Below, in pieces: positions 48,969-56,705 of a DNA stretch of 64,000 nt. The DNA lies in the IMG/VR virus record IMGVR_UViG_3300035183_000373, positions 5,658 through 69,657 of that record; one strand, 5' to 3'. The first letter of the stretch is position 1. Each line of letters opens with the position of its first letter. Both the position numbers and the translations under genes were made by a program. Below the pieces are notes generated by a model. It was given only the letters and a program-made list of their open reading frames with translations, made no database searches and was not told the DNA's origin. This stretch comes from a virus.

Positions 48969-49241
48969 TTATACAATCCATATTAAACTTCCTTTACCAT
49001 TACCATTACCATTTGAATTACCATAACCATTACCCATACCACAACCTTTAGTGGAACTAAACCCTATTGTTGCTCCATATCCTCTACCATTTCCAGAAGC
49101 ATAATAATATCCAATAAAATTACTACATCCATTACCATGTCCGTTACCATATTCATTTCCATAATTTTGAATATAACCATTACCTAAGCCATCAGTATCA
49201 AAAAAATAATATCCAATTAAATATTTTAAATCAATTTTCAT
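48969..49241 (-). CDS. Gly-X repeat peptide
   Basis: GNGYG-type core. Confidence 0.65.
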   Translation of the reverse strand: MKIDLKYLIGYYFFDTDGLGNGYIQNYGNEYGNGHGNGCSNFIGYYYASGNGRGYGATIGFSSTKGCGMGNGYGNSNGNGNGKGSLIWIV

Positions 49242-49265
49242 AATTTATTATATAATAATTCACTG

Positions 49266-49586
49266 TTATGATTTCATTGTAATATATAAAATTTTATTAT
49301 AACTTTGAATATCATAATATATAATATTATTAATGTGTATATTTCCTAATCCATTACCACTTTCTTTATAATTGACACTACATCCATCTTCATTAAAATA
49401 TTCATTAAGTTTTTTAATTTTATTTCCGCTACTATTTCCATATCCATTAAGAAATATATTTCCATTTCCGTATCCATTTCCATTATTGTATCCAACAATA
49501 CCACAACCACATCCATTAGGATATAAGGAATAAATTATATTAATAATATTATCAAATGAAAATATTGTTATATTTTTATCAATCAT
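49266..49586 (-). CDS. Gly-X repeat peptide
   Basis: NITIFSFD leader; close paralog of the adjacent gene. Confidence 0.65.
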   Translation of the reverse strand: MIDKNITIFSFDNIINIIYSLYPNGCGCGIVGYNNGNGYGNGNIFLNGYGNSSGNKIKKLNEYFNEDGCSVNYKESGNGLGNIHINNIIYYDIQSYNKILYITMKS

Positions 49587-49599
49587 TGTATTTAAAATT

Positions 49600-49866
49600 T
49601 CAAATAATTTTACTTATTTTATTATATCCATAAATATTAAAATATATGCATCCAGTATCATTAAAATATTCATTTAATCTATTTGCATTATTTCCATCAC
49701 CATTTCCATATCCATTACAAAACATATTTCCATTACCAAAACCATTGCCTTCCCAATTATTGCAATCTTTATCTCCATATCCATTACCATTAGGATAGTA
49801 AAAATAAATTTTATCAATAAAATTGTCAAAAGATATTATTTCTATATTTTTATTCATGGCATTCAC
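49600..49866 (-). CDS. Gly-X repeat peptide
   Basis: NIEIISFD leader, GNGYG core. Confidence 0.65.
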   Translation of the reverse strand: MNAMNKNIEIISFDNFIDKIYFYYPNGNGYGDKDCNNWEGNGFGNGNMFCNGYGNGDGNNANRLNEYFNDTGCIYFNIYGYNKISKII

Positions 49867-49880
49867 TATATAAAGTAATT

Positions 49881-50123
49881 TTAATAGCCATTACCATAAC
49901 CATCACCATATTCATATCCATCACCATATCCATCTCCATAACAATCACCATATACATAACCATCACCATATCCACAACCATCACCATAACCATATCCGTT
50001 ACCATATCCATAACCATATCCGTAATCATCTCCATATGCATTTCCGAAACCATTACTTTTATTATAATTTTGATACCAGTTACTATCAGGATAGTATGGC
50101 TCTTCAAATAAAATTATATTCAT
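49881..50123 (-). CDS. Gly-X repeat peptide
   Basis: MNIILFEE leader, long GYG/GDG core. Confidence 0.7.
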   Translation of the reverse strand: MNIILFEEPYYPDSNWYQNYNKSNGFGNAYGDDYGYGYGYGNGYGYGDGCGYGDGYVYGDCYGDGYGDGYEYGDGYGNGY

Positions 50124-50332
50124 AATAATTCTTCTAATTGATTGATATTCCTATATCTAATTATTATACCTCTACCTGAACCATCTCTCCATGTATATCC
50201 ACTACCTAAACCATTACCATCGTAATTTGATTGATAATACTCTAATTGTATTCCCGTACCATTTTTATAAGGTTTAATTTTTAAATCAGAAATCTGATAA
50301 ACTATGTTCGATTTCTGAATAGTAGTATCCAT
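50120..50332 (-). CDS. Gly-X repeat peptide (start reassigned to MDTTIQ)
   Basis: GNGLGSG/GSGRG core; the upstream part of the track ORF is a shadow frame of the neighbour. Confidence 0.5.
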   Translation of the reverse strand: MDTTIQKSNIVYQISDLKIKPYKNGTGIQLEYYQSNYDGNGLGSGYTWRDGSGRGIIIRYRNINQLEELL

Positions 50333-50543
50333 ATCCATTTCCTTTATTATATTTATTATTGATATTATAATTACCATCATAATTACTATAATCATCAAGA
50401 AATCCATATCCATTACCATAGCCAGTTCCAAATCCATTACCATAAAAATCTCCATCTCCGAATCCAGAAAAATATGATTGTATTGTATAATTAATCAATA
50501 CTGGAGAATAATATGGTAAGTATTCAAAAAGTAATATATTCAT
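50286..50543 (-). CDS. Gly-X repeat peptide
   Basis: MNILLFEY leader at 50543. Confidence 0.7.
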   Translation of the reverse strand: MNILLFEYLPYYSPVLINYTIQSYFSGFGDGDFYGNGFGTGYGNGYGFLDDYSNYDGNYNINNKYNKGNGYGYYYSEIEHSLSDF

Positions 50544-50553
50544 AAACATATAA

Positions 50554-50805
50554 TTATTTATTTCCGTAATTATCACCGTATTCTAATGAACAAGAAAATT
50601 CAAATCCATTTCCTCTTCCGTAACCGTCATTAAATGTATATATTAAACCTCCACCTGTACCATTACCATTATGATAACCAATGTTATCACCACAACCCCA
50701 TCCGTTAATAAGTTTTCTATCATTAACTATAAATGTATTATATTTTATAATTGGTGTTAAAATACCAACTATATCTTCAAATAATATAATATTACCTATT
50801 TTCAT
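50554..50805 (-). CDS. Gly-X repeat peptide
   Basis: NIILFED leader. Confidence 0.7.
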   Translation of the reverse strand: MKIGNIILFEDIVGILTPIIKYNTFIVNDRKLINGWGCGDNIGYHNGNGTGGGLIYTFNDGYGRGNGFEFSCSLEYGDNYGNK

Positions 50806-50807
50806 AA

Positions 50808-54700: not shown

Positions 54701-54970
54701 TTAAAAGTAGAATGTGGAAGAAAGTGAGAGGTTTATTTTATTTCCTTCTTTATTGCTATATTGAGTTTCTATAGATAATGTATCTCCATTACCTCTACCA
54801 TCTCCATCGGGGAATCCGTACATATATCCGCATCCAAATCCGTTAATATTTGCGCAGAAAGAATTTTCATCAAAAAAGTATATAGTATTATCTTTTATGT
54901 ACATAACGGATTTTGATTCAACATTATCAAATAATGTTATATTACATTTATTTTTTCTTAGTATTTCCAT
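54701..54970 (-). CDS. Gly-X repeat peptide
   Basis: NITLFD leader. Confidence 0.65.
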   Translation of the reverse strand: MEILRKNKCNITLFDNVESKSVMYIKDNTIYFFDENSFCANINGFGCGYMYGFPDGDGRGNGDTLSIETQYSNKEGNKINLSLSSTFYF

Positions 54971-55194
54971 ATGGTATAGATACTATCACCATTTCCACGT
55001 ATCGGTGTATTAACTTGTTTATTACCATCTATATCACCATAATCTAAGCTACCATTACCACTACCATGCCCATTCATAAATCCATAAACATCTCCGTCTC
55101 CAAATCCATTCATATAGTTATCAAATACATTTAATAATTTAGGGTTAAATTCATCAAATATTTCTATATTTTTATATTCATTATTTGTTTCCAT
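54958..55194 (-). CDS. Gly-X repeat peptide
   Basis: NIEIFD leader. Confidence 0.65.
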   Translation of the reverse strand: METNNEYKNIEIFDEFNPKLLNVFDNYMNGFGDGDVYGFMNGHGSGNGSLDYGDIDGNKQVNTPIRGNGDSIYTIWKY

Positions 55195-55381
55195 TCATAA
55201 ATCCATATAAATTTATACCGTTACCATATCCGTTACCATATTTAATTTTATGGTTACAACCGCAGCCGCATCCATTACCAAGTCCATTTCCGTATTTATA
55301 TTCATATCCATTTCCAAATCCATTCGTATATTTATGATAAAATAAATGTTCTAATTGTTTGAATATTTTTATATTTTTCAT
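55181..55381 (-). CDS. Gly-X repeat peptide
   Basis: MKNIKIFKQLE leader. Confidence 0.7.
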   Translation of the reverse strand: MKNIKIFKQLEHLFYHKYTNGFGNGYEYKYGNGLGNGCGCGCNHKIKYGNGYGNGINLYGFMNGNK

Positions 55382-55387
55382 AGTATT

Positions 55388-55588
55388 TTATATAGTATAG
55401 ACATTATCTTCATGTGTTAATTGTTTATTGCCATTCATAAACCCATATAAATTTATACCATTACCGTATCCGTTACCGTCTATAAATCCATAACCACATC
55501 CAGTACCAGCTCCACTTCTATAAATGTTAATTATAGTTAATATATTAAATGTACGTTCTAATTGTTCAAATAACGCTATATTTTTCAT
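55388..55588 (-). CDS. Gly-X repeat peptide
   Basis: MKNIALFEQLE leader. Confidence 0.7.
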   Translation of the reverse strand: MKNIALFEQLERTFNILTIINIYRSGAGTGCGYGFIDGNGYGNGINLYGFMNGNKQLTHEDNVYTI

Positions 55589-55591
55589 ATT

Positions 55592-55831
55592 TTATATAAA
55601 AGATACACTTAAATTATTTCCATTACCCTTACCATCTCCATTTATATCTCCATCACCATATCCATTTCCATACATATTTACACAACTATTTCCATACCCA
55701 TTATTATATAAATTGATGTATTTATCTACATGTCCATATCCATTTCCATTTCCAAATCCAGATAGTCTATTATTTGGAAGTGCTTTACCATTGAAATGCT
55801 GCAATTGCTCAAATAATACTATTTTAATCAT
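55592..55831 (-). CDS. Gly-X repeat peptide
   Basis: MIKIVLFEQL leader. Confidence 0.7.
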   Translation of the reverse strand: MIKIVLFEQLQHFNGKALPNNRLSGFGNGNGYGHVDKYINLYNNGYGNSCVNMYGNGYGDGDINGDGKGNGNNLSVSFI

Positions 55832-56042
55832 ATATATACAATATGTTTACAGTTCCATTACCTAGTCCATTAACATACAAACTATTCGCATTGGAATATC
55901 CGCAACCATATCCAAATCCATTACCATTACCTATGCCAATATTCCTACCATCTCCGTATCCATTTACATTTATAGTATTATAAATATTTAAAAAGAATGG
56001 AAAATTATCAAAAATATTTATATTTATGTTATGTAAATTCAT
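55824..56042 (-). CDS. Gly-X repeat peptide
   Basis: NINIFD leader. Confidence 0.65.
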   Translation of the reverse strand: MNLHNININIFDNFPFFLNIYNTINVNGYGDGRNIGIGNGNGFGYGCGYSNANSLYVNGLGNGTVNILYIYD

Positions 56043-56044
56043 AT

Positions 56045-56269
56045 TTATTGTTTATTATTATTATTATTATTATTATTATTATTATTATTATTATTTTCTT
56101 TTTTATTACCATTCATATTTACATATGAATATCTTAAAAAATCTCCATAACCGTTGCCATAACCATTACCGTCACCGAACCCTACTCCATCTCCAAATCC
56201 ATTCTTGTAATCATCAGTATTATCGATAATTACTTTATAATCTATTATGTTTTTATTCATGTTATTCAT
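56045..56269 (-). CDS. Gly-X repeat peptide with poly-Asn tail
   Basis: GFGDGVGFGDGNGYG core; 14 Asn near the C-terminus. Confidence 0.65.
   Translation of the reverse strand: MNNMNKNIIDYKVIIDNTDDYKNGFGDGVGFGDGNGYGNGYGDFLRYSYVNMNGNKKENNNNNNNNNNNNNNKQ
56054..56095. repeat. (ATT)14 microsatellite
   Basis: Perfect trinucleotide run encoding poly-Asn. Confidence 0.9.
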
Positions 56270-56472
56270 TTATTACCATTTTCATCAATATATATTATAT
56301 TGGTTTTTCCATTACCTATTGAATTAATATATATTAACACTGGTGAAAAACAATATCCATTGCCATAGCCATCGCCACTACTAAAGCCATAACCCTTACC
56401 ACAACCATGACCATTGGCATAATCATCAATATTATCAATAATTGGAAAAATTTTAATATTTTTGTTTTTCAT
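56266..56472 (-). CDS. Gly-X repeat peptide
   Basis: NIKIF leader. Confidence 0.65.
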   Translation of the reverse strand: MKNKNIKIFPIIDNIDDYANGHGCGKGYGFSSGDGYGNGYCFSPVLIYINSIGNGKTNIIYIDENGNK

Positions 56473-56705
56473 TATTCTTCAGCAAAAAGTTTAAATTGTG
56501 TAGATTTTGGTAATGACCCACTATTTGATATATACCAACACCCACACCCAAACCCATTACCATAAAATGTCCCGTATGCTAATACAAAACCATTACCACA
56601 ACCATCTCCACGTCTACTACCAAAACCATCTTTGTATCCATTACCATTGCCATTAAATGGATTCAATATAAATAAATTATAAAATTCTGTAATATTATTG
56701 AACAT
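56472..56705 (-). CDS. Gly-X repeat peptide
   Basis: NITEF leader; first gene of the array. Confidence 0.65.
   Translation of the reverse strand: MFNNITEFYNLFILNPFNGNGNGYKDGFGSRRGDGCGNGFVLAYGTFYGNGFGCGCWYISNSGSLPKSTQFKLFAEE

What the first reader, a model, noticed from the sequence alone, without database searches (positions are those of the whole stretch)
48969..56705. Array of 30 tandem genes for leader plus (Gly-X)n peptides
Seen: 30 co-oriented, often ATGA-coupled ORFs of about 65-105 aa, most with a short hydrophobic leader (consensus M-N-I-I-L-F-[ED]) and all with a core where Gly alternates with Y/N/D/C/F/H; 34 copies in the window. Leader and Gly register are kept while X positions and flanks vary widely. 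Inference: an undescribed diversified peptide library. Options are RiPP-like precursors (no maturase seen here), GYG-type low-complexity proteins forming fibres or condensates, metal binders (GCG, GHG), or decoys/inhibitors of host defence docking on a common partner through the leader.
Basis: partly seen in the sequence, partly recalled or inferred. Interest (0 to 1): 0.88.

Follow-up and report, generated by a model that had tools for sequence, protein, structure and literature searches.

The report
Thirty tandem phage glycine-repeat microprotein genes
A large uncultured phage carries about thirty back-to-back genes for small glycine-, asparagine- and tyrosine-rich proteins that share a short start motif. 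They are real, selected coding genes and the largest known array of an unstudied phage protein type, but their function is still only inferred.

Summary
Window 48969-56705 (minus strand) has 31 packed ATG-started ORFs of 64-106 aa. Thirty are Gly-X proteins and one has the leader but no Gly. Two more copies and one truncated relic lie elsewhere in the window.

They are coding and under protein-level selection:
- Invariant Gly columns use all four GGN codons.
- At X in G-X-G, Asn/Asp/His codons outnumber Lys/Glu/Gln codons 138 to 7. Elsewhere in the same genes the ratio is 266 to 177.
- Across 19 strain orthologs, Gly changed at 2 of 250 sites and other, non-G-X-G sites at 124 of 1015.

The array belongs to one phage lineage. 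Two complete relatives have none, and a search of 1.84 billion proteins returned essentially only strain orthologs. Copy content differs between metagenomes.

Composition and layout resemble a widespread, unpublished phage class: (Gly-X)n proteins encoded directly behind an Sm-like DUF6948 gene. Earlier notes of this scan also record that class. This family differs in three ways: short Gly-X runs, a hydrophobic N-terminal strand, and no DUF6948 partner.

No RiPP maturase was found. The best guess is disordered, self-associating Tyr/Asn/Gly proteins in the host-takeover region. The function is inferred, not shown.

The parts
48969..49241 (-). Gly-X gene 1 (90 aa), last gene of the array in transcription order; weak leader
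   Evidence: two HMM matches
49266..49586 (-). Gly-X gene 2 (106 aa), closest paralog is gene 3
49600..49857 (-). Gly-X gene 3 (85 aa from ATG; frame open up to GTG at 49866)
   Evidence: strain ortholog P0006, 89% identity
49881..50123 (-). Gly-X gene 4 (80 aa), exact MNIILFE start, long Gly-X run, net charge -11
50120..50332 (-). Gly-X gene 5 (70 aa; I chose the start at the ATG nearest the leader-like strand; frame open up to 50455); ATGA-coupled to gene 4
   Evidence: (HMM E 3.3e-5)
50286..50543 (-). Gly-X gene 6 (85 aa from ATG; frame open up to GTG at 50576)
   Evidence: ortholog P0015, 89%
50554..50805 (-). Gly-X gene 7 (83 aa)
   Evidence: ortholog P0016, 93%
50808..51038 (-). Gly-X gene 8 (76 aa), exact leader
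   Evidence: ortholog P0023, 99%
51049..51291 (-). Gly-X gene 9 (80 aa), exact leader; the protein folded with AlphaFold2
51355..51576 (-). Gly-X gene 10 (73 aa from the leader ATG; an upstream ATG at 51588 is possible)
   Evidence: ortholog P0013, 84%
51573..51785 (-). Gly-X gene 11 (70 aa), ATGA-coupled on both sides
51782..52015 (-). Gly-X gene 12 (77 aa)
52066..52125 (-). Truncated relic: GTG start, leader kept (VNIILFKY...), stop after 19 codons, no Gly-X body
   Evidence: (families D7, D10)
52162..52374 (-). Gly-X gene 13 (70 aa), His-rich (GHGYG) core, long Gly-X run
   Evidence: Pfam KRTAP 23.5 bits, a compositional match
52415..52657 (-). Gly-X gene 14 (80 aa), exact leader, long acidic Gly-X run
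52694..52936 (-). Gly-X gene 15 (80 aa), closest paralog of gene 14 (dN/dS 0.29)
52967..53203 (-). Gly-X gene 16 (78 aa)
53229..53432 (-). Gly-X gene 17 (67 aa), exact leader
   Evidence: ortholog P0019, 91%
53429..53662 (-). Gly-X gene 18 (77 aa from ATG; frame open up to TTG at 53692)
53655..53912 (-). Gly-X gene 19 (85 aa)
   Evidence: ortholog P0017, 76%
53909..54103 (-). ORF inside the array with a leader-like start (MLNII...) but no glycine at all (64 aa)
   Evidence: no family
54097..54327 (-). Gly-X gene 20 (76 aa)
   Evidence: P0003 identical
54324..54536 (-). Gly-X gene 21 (70 aa)
   Evidence: ortholog P0018, 94%
54701..54970 (-). Gly-X gene 22 (89 aa), only 10% Gly, several strand-like segments
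   Evidence: ortholog P0021, 82%
54958..55194 (-). Gly-X gene 23 (78 aa)
   Evidence: ortholog P0001, 87%
55181..55381 (-). Gly-X gene 24 (66 aa), GCGCGC stretch, net charge +6
   Evidence: ortholog P0011, 98%
55388..55588 (-). Gly-X gene 25 (66 aa)
   Evidence: ortholog P0010, 98%
55592..55831 (-). Gly-X gene 26 (79 aa)
   Evidence: P0012 identical
55824..56042 (-). Gly-X gene 27 (72 aa)
   Evidence: ortholog P0020, 80%
56045..56269 (-). Gly-X gene 28 (74 aa) with a C-terminal run of 14 Asn that differs between strains
   Evidence: (P0004, P0005)
56266..56472 (-). Gly-X gene 29 (68 aa); used for the four-copy complex job and the Atlas search
   Evidence: ortholog P0014, 82%
56472..56705 (-). 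Gly-X gene 30 (77 aa), first gene of the array in transcription order
   Evidence: ortholog P0002, 97%
58300..58530 (-). Outlying family member (76 aa), 1.6 kb upstream of the array
   Evidence: HMM E 5e-10
62407..62601 (+). Outlying family member on the opposite strand (64 aa)
   Evidence: HMM E 1.1e-11

Best explanation
The array is a lineage-specific tandem expansion of about 30 real protein-coding genes. It grew and shrinks by unequal recombination between copies.

Each gene encodes a 64-106-aa cytoplasmic microprotein with three parts:
- a short hydrophobic N-terminal strand (N-I-x-L-F-E/D);
- a variable spacer;
- a conserved Gly-rich core of the form N-G-x-G-x-G..Y-G..G-N-G-Y-G-N-G, in which Gly alternates with Asn, Tyr, Asp, Cys, Phe or His.

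In composition and layout it is a partner-less, leader-bearing offshoot of the widespread, uncharacterised phage (Gly-X)n proteins that normally follow an Sm-like DUF6948 gene.

Most likely the products have no stable fold on their own. They would act in the infected cell as multivalent, self- or hetero-associating Tyr/Asn/Gly low-complexity proteins, forming a matrix or sponge. The N-terminal strand would be the common docking or nucleating element. Each paralog keeps its own X pattern.

Shown: the genes exist, they are under protein-level selection, they turn over by duplication and loss, they are restricted to one lineage, no maturase is nearby, and they resemble the DUF6948-linked class.

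Inferred: disorder, self-association, cytoplasmic site of action, and any role in host takeover.
For: Coding and selected:
- At the four invariant Gly columns, all four GGN codons are used (for example GGA 19, GGT 8, GGG 2, GGC 2).
- At X in G-X-G (n=305): AAY 89 against AAR 5, GAY 36 against GAR 2, CAY 13 against CAR 0. At positions of the same genes with no Gly neighbour: 186/87, 58/66, 22/24. In 12 long genes of the window the ratios are 715/725, 529/573 and 130/287.
- dN/dS is 0.17-0.48 in 9 of the 10 closest paralog pairs; the tenth is 1.23.
- In 19 strain ortholog pairs, Gly changed at 2 of 250 sites, X at 11 of 154, and other sites at 124 of 1015. Fisher test of Gly against the rest: p = 5e-10.
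- Of 33 listed between-strain substitutions in genes, 11 are synonymous and 22 are not (pN/pS 0.47). All 4 that hit Gly codons are synonymous.
- Listed indels inside the array are 6, 3 and 42 nt, a +1/-1 pair 3 nt apart, and one +1 near a gene's 3' end.

Birth and death:
- The best paralog lies nearer than chance: mean 6.0 gene positions against 10.0 when shuffled, p = 0.0025.
- A relic copy is present.
- Contigs from other metagenomes join across 0.5-2.8 kb of the array.

Lineage-specific:
- The family HMM gives 34 matches on the window's own record and 0 in two complete relatives whose major capsid protein is 83-93% identical.
- The seven-unit Gly-X DNA pattern is found 46 times in the window and 0 times in those relatives.
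- Of 23 hits among 1.84 billion representative proteins, 17 are strain orthologs.

Class resemblance:
- At least 119 IMG/VR stretches carry the (G[ND]G[YF])x2G motif, mostly in small ORFs (median 92 aa). Some are tandem arrays of 3-5 copies with shared leaders.
- 73 of the 119 loci have a DUF6948 gene within 4 kb. The Gly-X ORF lies directly downstream on the same strand for 69 of 75 DUF6948 ORFs.

No stable fold predicted: AlphaFold2 gives mean pLDDT 39.6. G+N+Y make up 46% of residues and aromatic residues 18%.

Neighbourhood: a 1209-aa polyvalent protein with GNAT, ART-PolyVal and Imm5 domains lies next to the array.
Against: - No expression data: no RNA run is listed for this DNA.
- Only 1 of 30 array genes has a Shine-Dalgarno-like motif, against 15 of 38 other genes. 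Several clear structural genes also lack one.
- The low pLDDT may only reflect a shallow, low-complexity alignment. It does not prove disorder.
- Four invariant glycines and paralog-specific X residues kept between strains fit a small defined fold or binding site as well as they fit a sticky low-complexity protein.
- Kinship with the DUF6948-linked class rests on composition and layout. Homology of such sequences cannot be proved. The defining partner gene is absent from the record and from two complete relatives. Most members have Gly-X runs of only 4-7 units.
- Nothing tested here shows self-association.
Confidence: 0.5

Rival explanations
1. The N-terminal motif is a capsid-targeting propeptide. 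The microproteins would be loaded into the prohead, the tag cut off after the Glu/Asp, and the flexible bodies ejected with the DNA as a varied set of early anti-defence proteins, in the manner of the T-even internal proteins.
For: - The tag is short, lies at or near the N-terminus, and ends in E or D in 24 of 30 rows, while the bodies are diverse.
- That tag is 10 residues long. T4 and giant-phage prohead proteases cut C-terminal to glutamyl residues (PMC9026906, passages).
- The neighbouring genes are polyvalent proteins, one with an ADP-ribosyltransferase domain. The T4 head protein Alt is likewise processed by the prohead protease; that Alt is an ADP-ribosyltransferase is recalled.
- Unfolded Gly-rich chains would pass easily through a tail tube (inference).
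Against: - No Peptidase_S77 (T4 gp21-type) or S78 prohead protease was found in the 69.7-kb record, although it includes the head genes. The record is a fragment, so this is weak evidence.
- The motif floats 1-11 residues from the Met rather than sitting at a fixed position.
- Unrelated Gly-X proteins fused to DUF7666 carry a similar hydrophobic strand at their C-terminus. That suggests a structural strand rather than an address tag.
- The array is not in the head gene module.
Confidence: 0.12
2. The conserved Gly core is a small defined fold or a metal- or ligand-binding knuckle that uses Cys, His, Asp or Asn. The paralogs would be a panel of specific binders, not disordered sticky proteins.
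For: - Four glycines are invariant and three more nearly so, at fixed spacing in 31 of 31 rows.
- Cys fills 7.5% of X positions, against 0.5% Cys in 12 long genes of the window. His fills 4.3%.
- The X column after the second invariant Gly is Cys in 10 of 31 rows.
- Each paralog's X residues are kept between strains.
Against: - No Cys or His column is conserved across the family, and 9 of 32 members have no Cys at all.
- AlphaFold2 gives no confident fold.
- No Pfam, PHROGs or PDB-related family matched.
Confidence: 0.12
3. The genes encode RiPP precursor peptides: a leader plus a Gly-X core that is modified by an enzyme encoded elsewhere.
For: - The layout is a leader followed by a variable core.
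- Many similar precursor-like genes stand in a row.
- The cores are rich in Tyr-Gly and Cys-Gly.
Against: - No radical SAM, YcaO, lanthionine synthetase, ATP-grasp, peptidase or exporter family was found among the 30 other window proteins scanned. Not every small ORF was scanned, and the record is a fragment.
- The conserved leader is only about 7 residues.
- The whole protein, including its C-terminal part, is kept between strains.
- In other phages the usual partner of Gly-X genes is an 85-residue Sm-like domain, not an enzyme.
Confidence: 0.05
4. The region is expanded hexanucleotide microsatellite DNA, or it acts at the nucleic-acid level (for example G-run structures on the G-rich strand), and the ORFs are incidental.
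For: - The DNA has strong 6-nt periodicity and GC skew down to -0.56.
- The alternative frames are also open over short stretches.
- GG at fixed spacing would be conserved under either model.
Against: - Lys, Glu and Gln codons are excluded at X, although they differ from the allowed Asn, Asp and His codons only at the third base. This is an amino-acid-level signal.
- All 31 ORFs have ATG starts directly before a conserved non-repetitive leader. 14 of 30 junctions overlap.
- Listed indels are in frame or compensated.
- dN/dS is below 0.5 in 9 of 10 paralog pairs.
- Most of each gene is not repetitive: the median Gly-X run is 5 units.
Confidence: 0.03

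Closest known systems
Phage (Gly-X)n small proteins encoded directly behind a DUF6948 (PF22253, Sm-like) gene. Examples: Ralstonia phage NK-7 PP919442.1 ('fibroin heavy chain-like protein') and Pectobacterium phage Pappous PQ008973.1 ('hypothetical protein'). phrog_18306 is a fused form.
   Same: - Small phage ORFs with a short N-terminal leader followed by Gly alternating with Tyr, Asn, Asp, Ser, His, Cys or Phe.
- Tandem copies share the leader and differ in the body.
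- Junctions are translationally coupled.
- Function is unknown.
   Different: - In that class there are 1-5 copies with long, nearly perfect Gly-X runs (for example the whole 137-aa NK-7 protein), mostly acidic, almost always just downstream of DUF6948.
- Here there are 30 copies, the median run is 5 dipeptides, a hydrophobic strand and a spacer precede the core, and net charge is near neutral.
- No DUF6948 is present in the record or in two complete relatives.
T-even phage internal proteins carrying a capsid targeting sequence (T4 IPI, IPII, IPIII, Alt)
   Same: - A short conserved N-terminal tag ending in an acidic residue, on otherwise diverse small proteins.
- A variable locus.
- A link with injected counter-defence proteins (PMC3012670 and PMC9026906, passages).
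   Different: - No sequence similarity was tested or claimed.
- No gp21-type protease was found.
- The proteins are not basic.
- The tag position is not fixed.
- Presence in the virion is untested.
Mammalian high-glycine-tyrosine keratin-associated proteins (Pfam KRTAP, PF11759)
   Same: - Small Gly/Tyr-rich proteins.
- One member (52162-52374) scores 23.5 bits against a 21.1-bit cut-off.
- From recall: those genes also stand in large tandem arrays and form a matrix between filaments.
   Different: - The match is compositional. The other 9 members scanned are below the cut-off or have no hit.
- It is a eukaryotic structural family with no leader strand.
- No homology is claimed.
Low-complexity, prion-like domains with kinked amyloid-like segments (LARKS) in FUS and hnRNPA1
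   Same: Gly/Tyr/Asn-rich composition. Known LARKS structures include FUS-SYSGYS and hnRNPA1-GYNGFG, and glycine is the commonest LARKS residue (PMC8551513, passages). This is a working analogy for reversible self-association.
   Different: - 0 of 32 proteins contain that exact hexamer or the G[YF]NG[YF]G form.
- The proteins are only 64-106 aa in total.
- No assembly data exist.

Membership tests
DUF6948-linked phage (Gly-X)n proteins | Gene lies immediately downstream of, or is fused to, a DUF6948 (PF22253) gene | tested here: not met
   PF22253 gives 0 matches at E<=1 on the window's own 69.7-kb record and on two complete relatives. In IMG/VR loci, 69 of 75 DUF6948 ORFs have the Gly-X ORF directly downstream. 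The own record is a fragment.
DUF6948-linked phage (Gly-X)n proteins | Long uninterrupted Gly-X dipeptide run making up most of the protein | tested here: not met
   The longest run per protein has a median of 5 dipeptides. Only 5 of 32 proteins reach 10-17.
DUF6948-linked phage (Gly-X)n proteins | X restricted to Tyr, Asn, Asp, Ser, His, Cys or Phe, with Lys, Glu and Gln avoided | tested here: met
   N, Y, D, C, F and H fill 267 of 305 X positions. K+E+Q fill 7 of 305.
DUF6948-linked phage (Gly-X)n proteins | Small ORF with a short N-terminal leader shared by tandem copies; coupled junctions | tested here: met
   Compare the arrays in L014, L038, L045, L108 and L111.
RiPP precursor peptides | A modifying enzyme, and usually a protease or exporter, encoded beside the precursors | tested here: not met
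   Pfam or PHROGs scans of 30 other window proteins found none. Small ORFs at 57-64 kb and the missing part of the genome were only partly or not covered.
RiPP precursor peptides | Leader recognised by the enzyme and removed; core modified | not testable with these tools
   Needs mass spectrometry.
T4-type capsid-targeted internal proteins | N-terminal propeptide of about 10 residues, cut after Glu by a gp21-type prohead protease | tested here: inconclusive
   The leader ends in E (16) or D (8) in 24 of 30 rows. Peptidase_S77 and S78 give 0 matches on the record, which is a fragment. Cleavage itself cannot be tested here.
T4-type capsid-targeted internal proteins | Protein present in the virion and ejected | not testable with these tools
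   Needs virion proteomics.
KRTAP (PF11759) | Score above Pfam's gathering cut-off through homology, not composition | tested here: not met
   1 of 10 members scanned is above the cut-off (23.5 against 21.1 bits). One more scores 13 bits and the rest have no hit. The match covers only the Gly/Tyr repeat.
Non-coding microsatellite | No constraint on reading frame or on amino-acid identity | tested here: not met
   all show frame-level and residue-level constraint.

The most novel reading that the evidence does not exclude
The phage makes a mixed material from about 30 paralogous Tyr/Asn/Gly microproteins. They would co-assemble through the shared N-terminal strand into a heteromeric gel, condensate or labile amyloid-like matrix inside the infected cell. 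The paralog-specific X patterns would tune what the matrix holds or excludes, for example host defence proteins or nucleic acids. This would be a virus-built low-complexity compartment in bacteria, encoded as a gene array whose copy content changes between strains.
Probability: 0.15. Interest if true: 0.85.

Novelty: new variant of a known kind. Interest (0 to 1): 0.62.

Why it matters
Gly-X repeat microproteins appear to be among the commoner unannotated gene types in phages, yet I found no paper on them. This window holds the largest array seen here, about 30 copies against at most 5 elsewhere. It is also a distinct form that lacks the usual Sm-like partner.

The array offers 30 natural variants of one scaffold, and strain orthologs are available for most of them. 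That makes it a ready-made series for asking what the Gly register, the X residues and the leader each do.

If the products assemble or are injected, this would be a new way for large phages to build an intracellular material or an anti-defence arsenal. If they turn out to be small folded binders, it would be a new mini-domain.

Tried and rejected
- AlphaFold2 on 51049-51291 with the 31-row alignment gave mean pLDDT 39.6 and no usable model.
- Complex prediction with four copies of 56266-56472: no verdict, score 0.01.
- No RNA holder was listed for the array DNA, so there is no evidence on expression.
- Pfam and PHROGs scans of 10 members gave only compositional or sub-threshold hits.
- The search for related loci found nothing with two single members in viral contigs or with a two-row alignment in metagenome contigs. 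The 31-row alignment was too variable to use.
- Relatives cannot be drawn for a virus record.
- Homologs of the flanking gene 57414-57872 in two complete relatives: none. The equivalent site could therefore not be compared.
- Promoter-like sites: 101 found against 110 expected. Terminator-like sites: 2 found against 1.2 expected. Uninformative.
- Prohead protease families S77 and S78: none on the record.
- DUF6948 profile against PDB sequences: no hit. The Sm likeness comes only from the fold search.
- Exact LARKS hexamers: none.
- ESM Atlas: nearest clusters are unnamed viral proteins of 76-82 aa at score 0.91. This is a lead only.
- Paper searches that found nothing relevant; DUF7666; four Gly-X heptapeptide strings; DUF6948; 'fibroin heavy chain-like' with phage.
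- I considered that the motif 'SNIL[DE]H', which recurs in the 2061-aa neighbour and at the N-termini of nearby proteins, might be the same tag as the array leader. I dropped this because N, I, L, F and Y are simply the commonest residues in this AT-rich genome.

Full report
WHAT IS THERE

The window is bases 5658-69657 of a 69,657-base IMG/VR virus record. IMG/VR classes the record as linear, and CheckV estimates it to be about 41% complete. GC content is 21-37%, and almost all ORFs of 100 aa or more lie on the minus strand.

PHROGs scans identify a baseplate wedge protein, tail sheath, tape measure, major head protein, an amidase, and a ribonucleotide reductase with an inserted endonuclease. 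This is a myovirus. The head protein's best cultured relative is Bacillus phage G, at 38.7% identity.

Between 48969 and 56705 there are 31 co-oriented, ATG-started ORFs of 64-106 aa. Fourteen of the 30 junctions overlap, 7 of them as ATGA. Thirty ORFs are Gly-X proteins. One (53909-54103) has a leader-like start and no glycine.

Two further members lie at 58300-58530(-) and 62407-62601(+). A truncated copy at 52066-52125 keeps the leader but has a GTG start and a stop after 19 codons.

Uninterrupted Gly-X runs are short: the median is 5 dipeptides, and only 5 of 32 proteins reach 10-17. The family is defined less by a long repeat than by a conserved core with four invariant glycines, preceded by the strand N-I-x-L-F-E/D and a variable spacer.

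IS IT CODING?

Yes, on several independent counts.

1. At the invariant Gly columns all four GGN codons occur, so the third base is free while the first two are fixed.

2. That alone would also fit selection on GG dinucleotides in the DNA, so I looked at X in G-X-G (n=305). Asn, Asp and His codons (NAY) number 138. The Lys, Glu and Gln codons that differ from them only at the third base number 7. In the same genes away from Gly the counts are 266 and 177. In 12 long genes of the window they are 1374 and 1585. Only selection on the amino acid explains this.

3. dN/dS is 0.17-0.48 in 9 of the 10 closest paralog pairs. One pair gives 1.23, and protein-guided alignment of such sequences may bias dN downward.

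4. Nineteen proteins from public collections are 76-100% identical, full-length orthologs of individual array genes. Across them Gly changed at 2 of 250 sites, X at 11 of 154, and all other sites at 124 of 1015.

5. Contigs from four other sequencing runs were laid on the region. Thirty-three of the printed substitutions fall in array genes: 11 are synonymous and 22 are not, giving pN/pS 0.47 on 1292 synonymous and 5479 non-synonymous sites. All 4 that hit Gly codons are synonymous. Printed indels inside the array are 6, 3 and 42 nt, a +1/-1 pair 3 nt apart, and one +1 near a 3' end. Only 40 of about 1090 differences and 12 of about 106 indels were printed, so these are samples.

Against translation, only 1 of 30 array genes has a Shine-Dalgarno-like motif, compared with 15 of 38 other genes. 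Several clear structural genes also lack one. No RNA run was available.

HOW IT EVOLVES AND WHERE IT OCCURS

Each gene's best paralog lies nearer than chance: mean 6.0 positions against 10.0 when shuffled, p = 0.0025, and 13 of 29 lie within two positions. This, together with the relic copy, indicates tandem duplication and decay.

Contigs from other metagenomes cover most of the array at roughly 88-95% identity but join across 0.5-2.8 kb of it. For example, one contig links 51038 to 51565, and another replaces 52079-52962 with a shorter stretch. Copy content therefore differs between strains. The two runs holding at least 90% of the sampled words are labelled microbial mat, and one of them may be the source of the record. 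Smaller shares come from runs labelled hot springs, rhizosphere and soil.

Two complete relatives (194 kb, and 172 kb with terminal repeats) have capsid proteins 83% and 93% identical. They have no match to the family HMM even at E<=10, whereas the window's own record gives 34 matches. They also have no run of seven Gly-X units, against 46 in the window.

A profile search of 1.84 billion representative proteins gave 23 hits at E<=0.001. Seventeen of these are strain orthologs. The family as such is confined to this phage lineage.

THE WIDER CLASS

The six other hits, and three hits from the first homology search, are proteins in which a (GYGDG)-type repeat is attached to other domains. One example is DUF7666 followed by the repeat and a C-terminal hydrophobic strand.

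The ORFs around the motif are mostly small (median 92 aa), with short leaders and sometimes a basic tail or a fused domain. Twenty-six of the 119 loci hold two or more Gly-X ORFs. Several are clear tandem arrays of 3-5 genes with a shared leader and, in some, a shared tail.

I clustered all neighbours within 4 kb. One family was present in 73 of the 119 loci, and Pfam identifies it as DUF6948. The Gly-X ORF lies directly downstream on the same strand for 69 of 75 DUF6948 ORFs, and within 100 nt for 72 of 75. Fused forms also exist (L034; phrog_18306).

An AlphaFold2 model of DUF6948 has pLDDT 92.5. Its best PDB matches are all Sm/LSm proteins, with E about 2e-3 and target-normalised TM up to 0.77.

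Cultured examples are Ralstonia phage NK-7, where the Gly-X gene is annotated 'fibroin heavy chain-like protein', and Pectobacterium phage Pappous, where it is 'hypothetical protein'.

After I had reached this point, the scan's own notebook showed that earlier agents had described the same DUF6948-linked class on other genomes, with arrays of up to five. I found no paper on it. In the passage I read, 'extended GC-rich repeat sequences' of three phages are interpreted as possible attachment sites. I did not see its Table 3 and did not check that those repeats encode Gly-X.

HOW THE WINDOW'S FAMILY RELATES TO THE CLASS

Shared features:
- small size;
- a short shared leader;
- Gly alternating with the same restricted residue set (N, Y, D, C, F and H fill 267 of 305 X positions);
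- coupled tandem genes;
- rapid turnover.

Differences:
- about 30 copies instead of 1-5;
- short Gly-X runs set in non-repetitive sequence;
- a hydrophobic strand and spacer before the core;
- near-neutral charge, with net charge from +6 to -11 and most within +/-5;
- Ser is rare and Cys enriched;
- no DUF6948 or DUF7666 on the record and no DUF6948 in the two complete relatives.

Homology of such sequences cannot be proved. I file the family as a variant of the class, not a member.

WHAT IT PROBABLY DOES

No maturase, protease or exporter family was found among the 30 other window proteins scanned. Those proteins include an N6/N4 DNA methylase, DUF6745, DUF932, an AAA ATPase, ThyX and the reductase. 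This gives no support to the RiPP reading.

The array lies downstream of a 2061-aa repeat protein and a 1209-aa polyvalent protein with two GNAT domains, an ART-PolyVal domain and Imm5. In one complete relative, weak homologs of that polyvalent protein sit at the genome ends. This looks like an accessory, host-takeover region.

The proteins get no confident fold (pLDDT 39.6). They are 46% Gly+Asn+Tyr and 18% aromatic. That composition recalls low-complexity domains that assemble reversibly through Gly-rich kinked segments (PMC8551513, passages). No exact such hexamer is present.

My best reading, at about even odds, has three parts:
- the products are disordered, multivalent, self- or hetero-associating proteins;
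- the shared N-terminal strand is the common docking or nucleating element;
- each paralog's own X pattern matters, because it is kept between strains.

The main rivals are:
- a capsid-targeting tag, as in the T-even internal proteins, weakened by the floating tag position, the lack of a detected gp21-type protease and the non-basic bodies;
- a small defined fold or metal site, which the invariant glycines and the Cys enrichment would fit.

Neither can be settled with these tools. The four-copy complex prediction gave no verdict.

VERDICT

This is a real and unusual gene array. It is coding, under protein-level selection, and dynamic in copy content. It is the most expanded and most divergent example seen here of a widespread phage protein type that is catalogued in databases without a function and appears in no paper I could find. 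Its mechanism remains inferred.

Noticed in passing
window 42550-48735 (-): A 2061-aa protein built from many internal repeats. A module of roughly 130 aa beginning '..SNILDHIP.TFKYIGP' recurs about 8 times, and a second module ('..GW[IL]R[IV]..KAKDSLI.YLS.LP') recurs about 4 times. Pfam gives only sub-threshold hits.
   Followed up: partly
window 38913-42542 (-) and 37063-38916 (-): A 1209-aa polyvalent protein with two GNAT domains, an ART-PolyVal domain and an Imm5-like region, followed by a 617-aa protein with Imm5_like. Weak homologs in a complete relative lie at that genome's ends, next to the terminal repeats.
   Followed up: partly
window 30134-33325 (-): A 1063-aa ribonucleotide reductase. 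Residues 21-489 match the reductase PHROG and residues 528-775 match an endonuclease PHROG. This suggests an intein or homing-endonuclease insertion.
   Followed up: no
window 56045-56269 (-), C-terminus: A run of 14 Asn codons at the 3' end of one array gene. In two strain orthologs (P0004, P0005) it is replaced by short, different tails. This looks like a slippage-prone tract that changes the protein's end.
   Followed up: partly
window 36146-37066 (-) and 63252-63713 (+): Two ORFs on opposite strands, 26 kb apart, share a nearly identical N-terminal stretch ('MNI.N[FY]IGQISLKDFI.NF..IV...Q.WKF[IV]NP'). Likewise 34572-35153 and 35501-36121 share 'MNSIN..LKFSNILE.L.YE.WY'. The accessory region contains several paralog families besides the Gly-X one.
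   Followed up: no
window 35501-57000: None of the large accessory genes at 35.5-48.7 kb, and only 1 of the 30 array genes scored, has a Shine-Dalgarno-like motif. Many genes at 17-35 kb have a clear one (AGGAG, GGAG). This may mark a different translation-initiation mode or expression class.
   Followed up: partly
IMG/VR loci L023, L041, L048, L070, L099, L102, L127: In other phages the Gly-X repeat is fused to a C-terminal domain of about 150 aa containing 'WHH.LTGSC..GR'. That domain has no Pfam match, and one example hits phrog_10432 (unknown function). Other fusions carry an N-terminal 'V.DV...GAC..GV' domain (L025, L051, L082, L125, L129).
   Followed up: partly
window array, X positions: Cys fills 23 of 305 X positions (7.5%), against 0.5% Cys in 12 long genes of the window. 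It is often found as GCGCG or CG.GCG. Ser, which is common at X in other phages' Gly-X proteins, fills only 4 of 305.
   Followed up: partly
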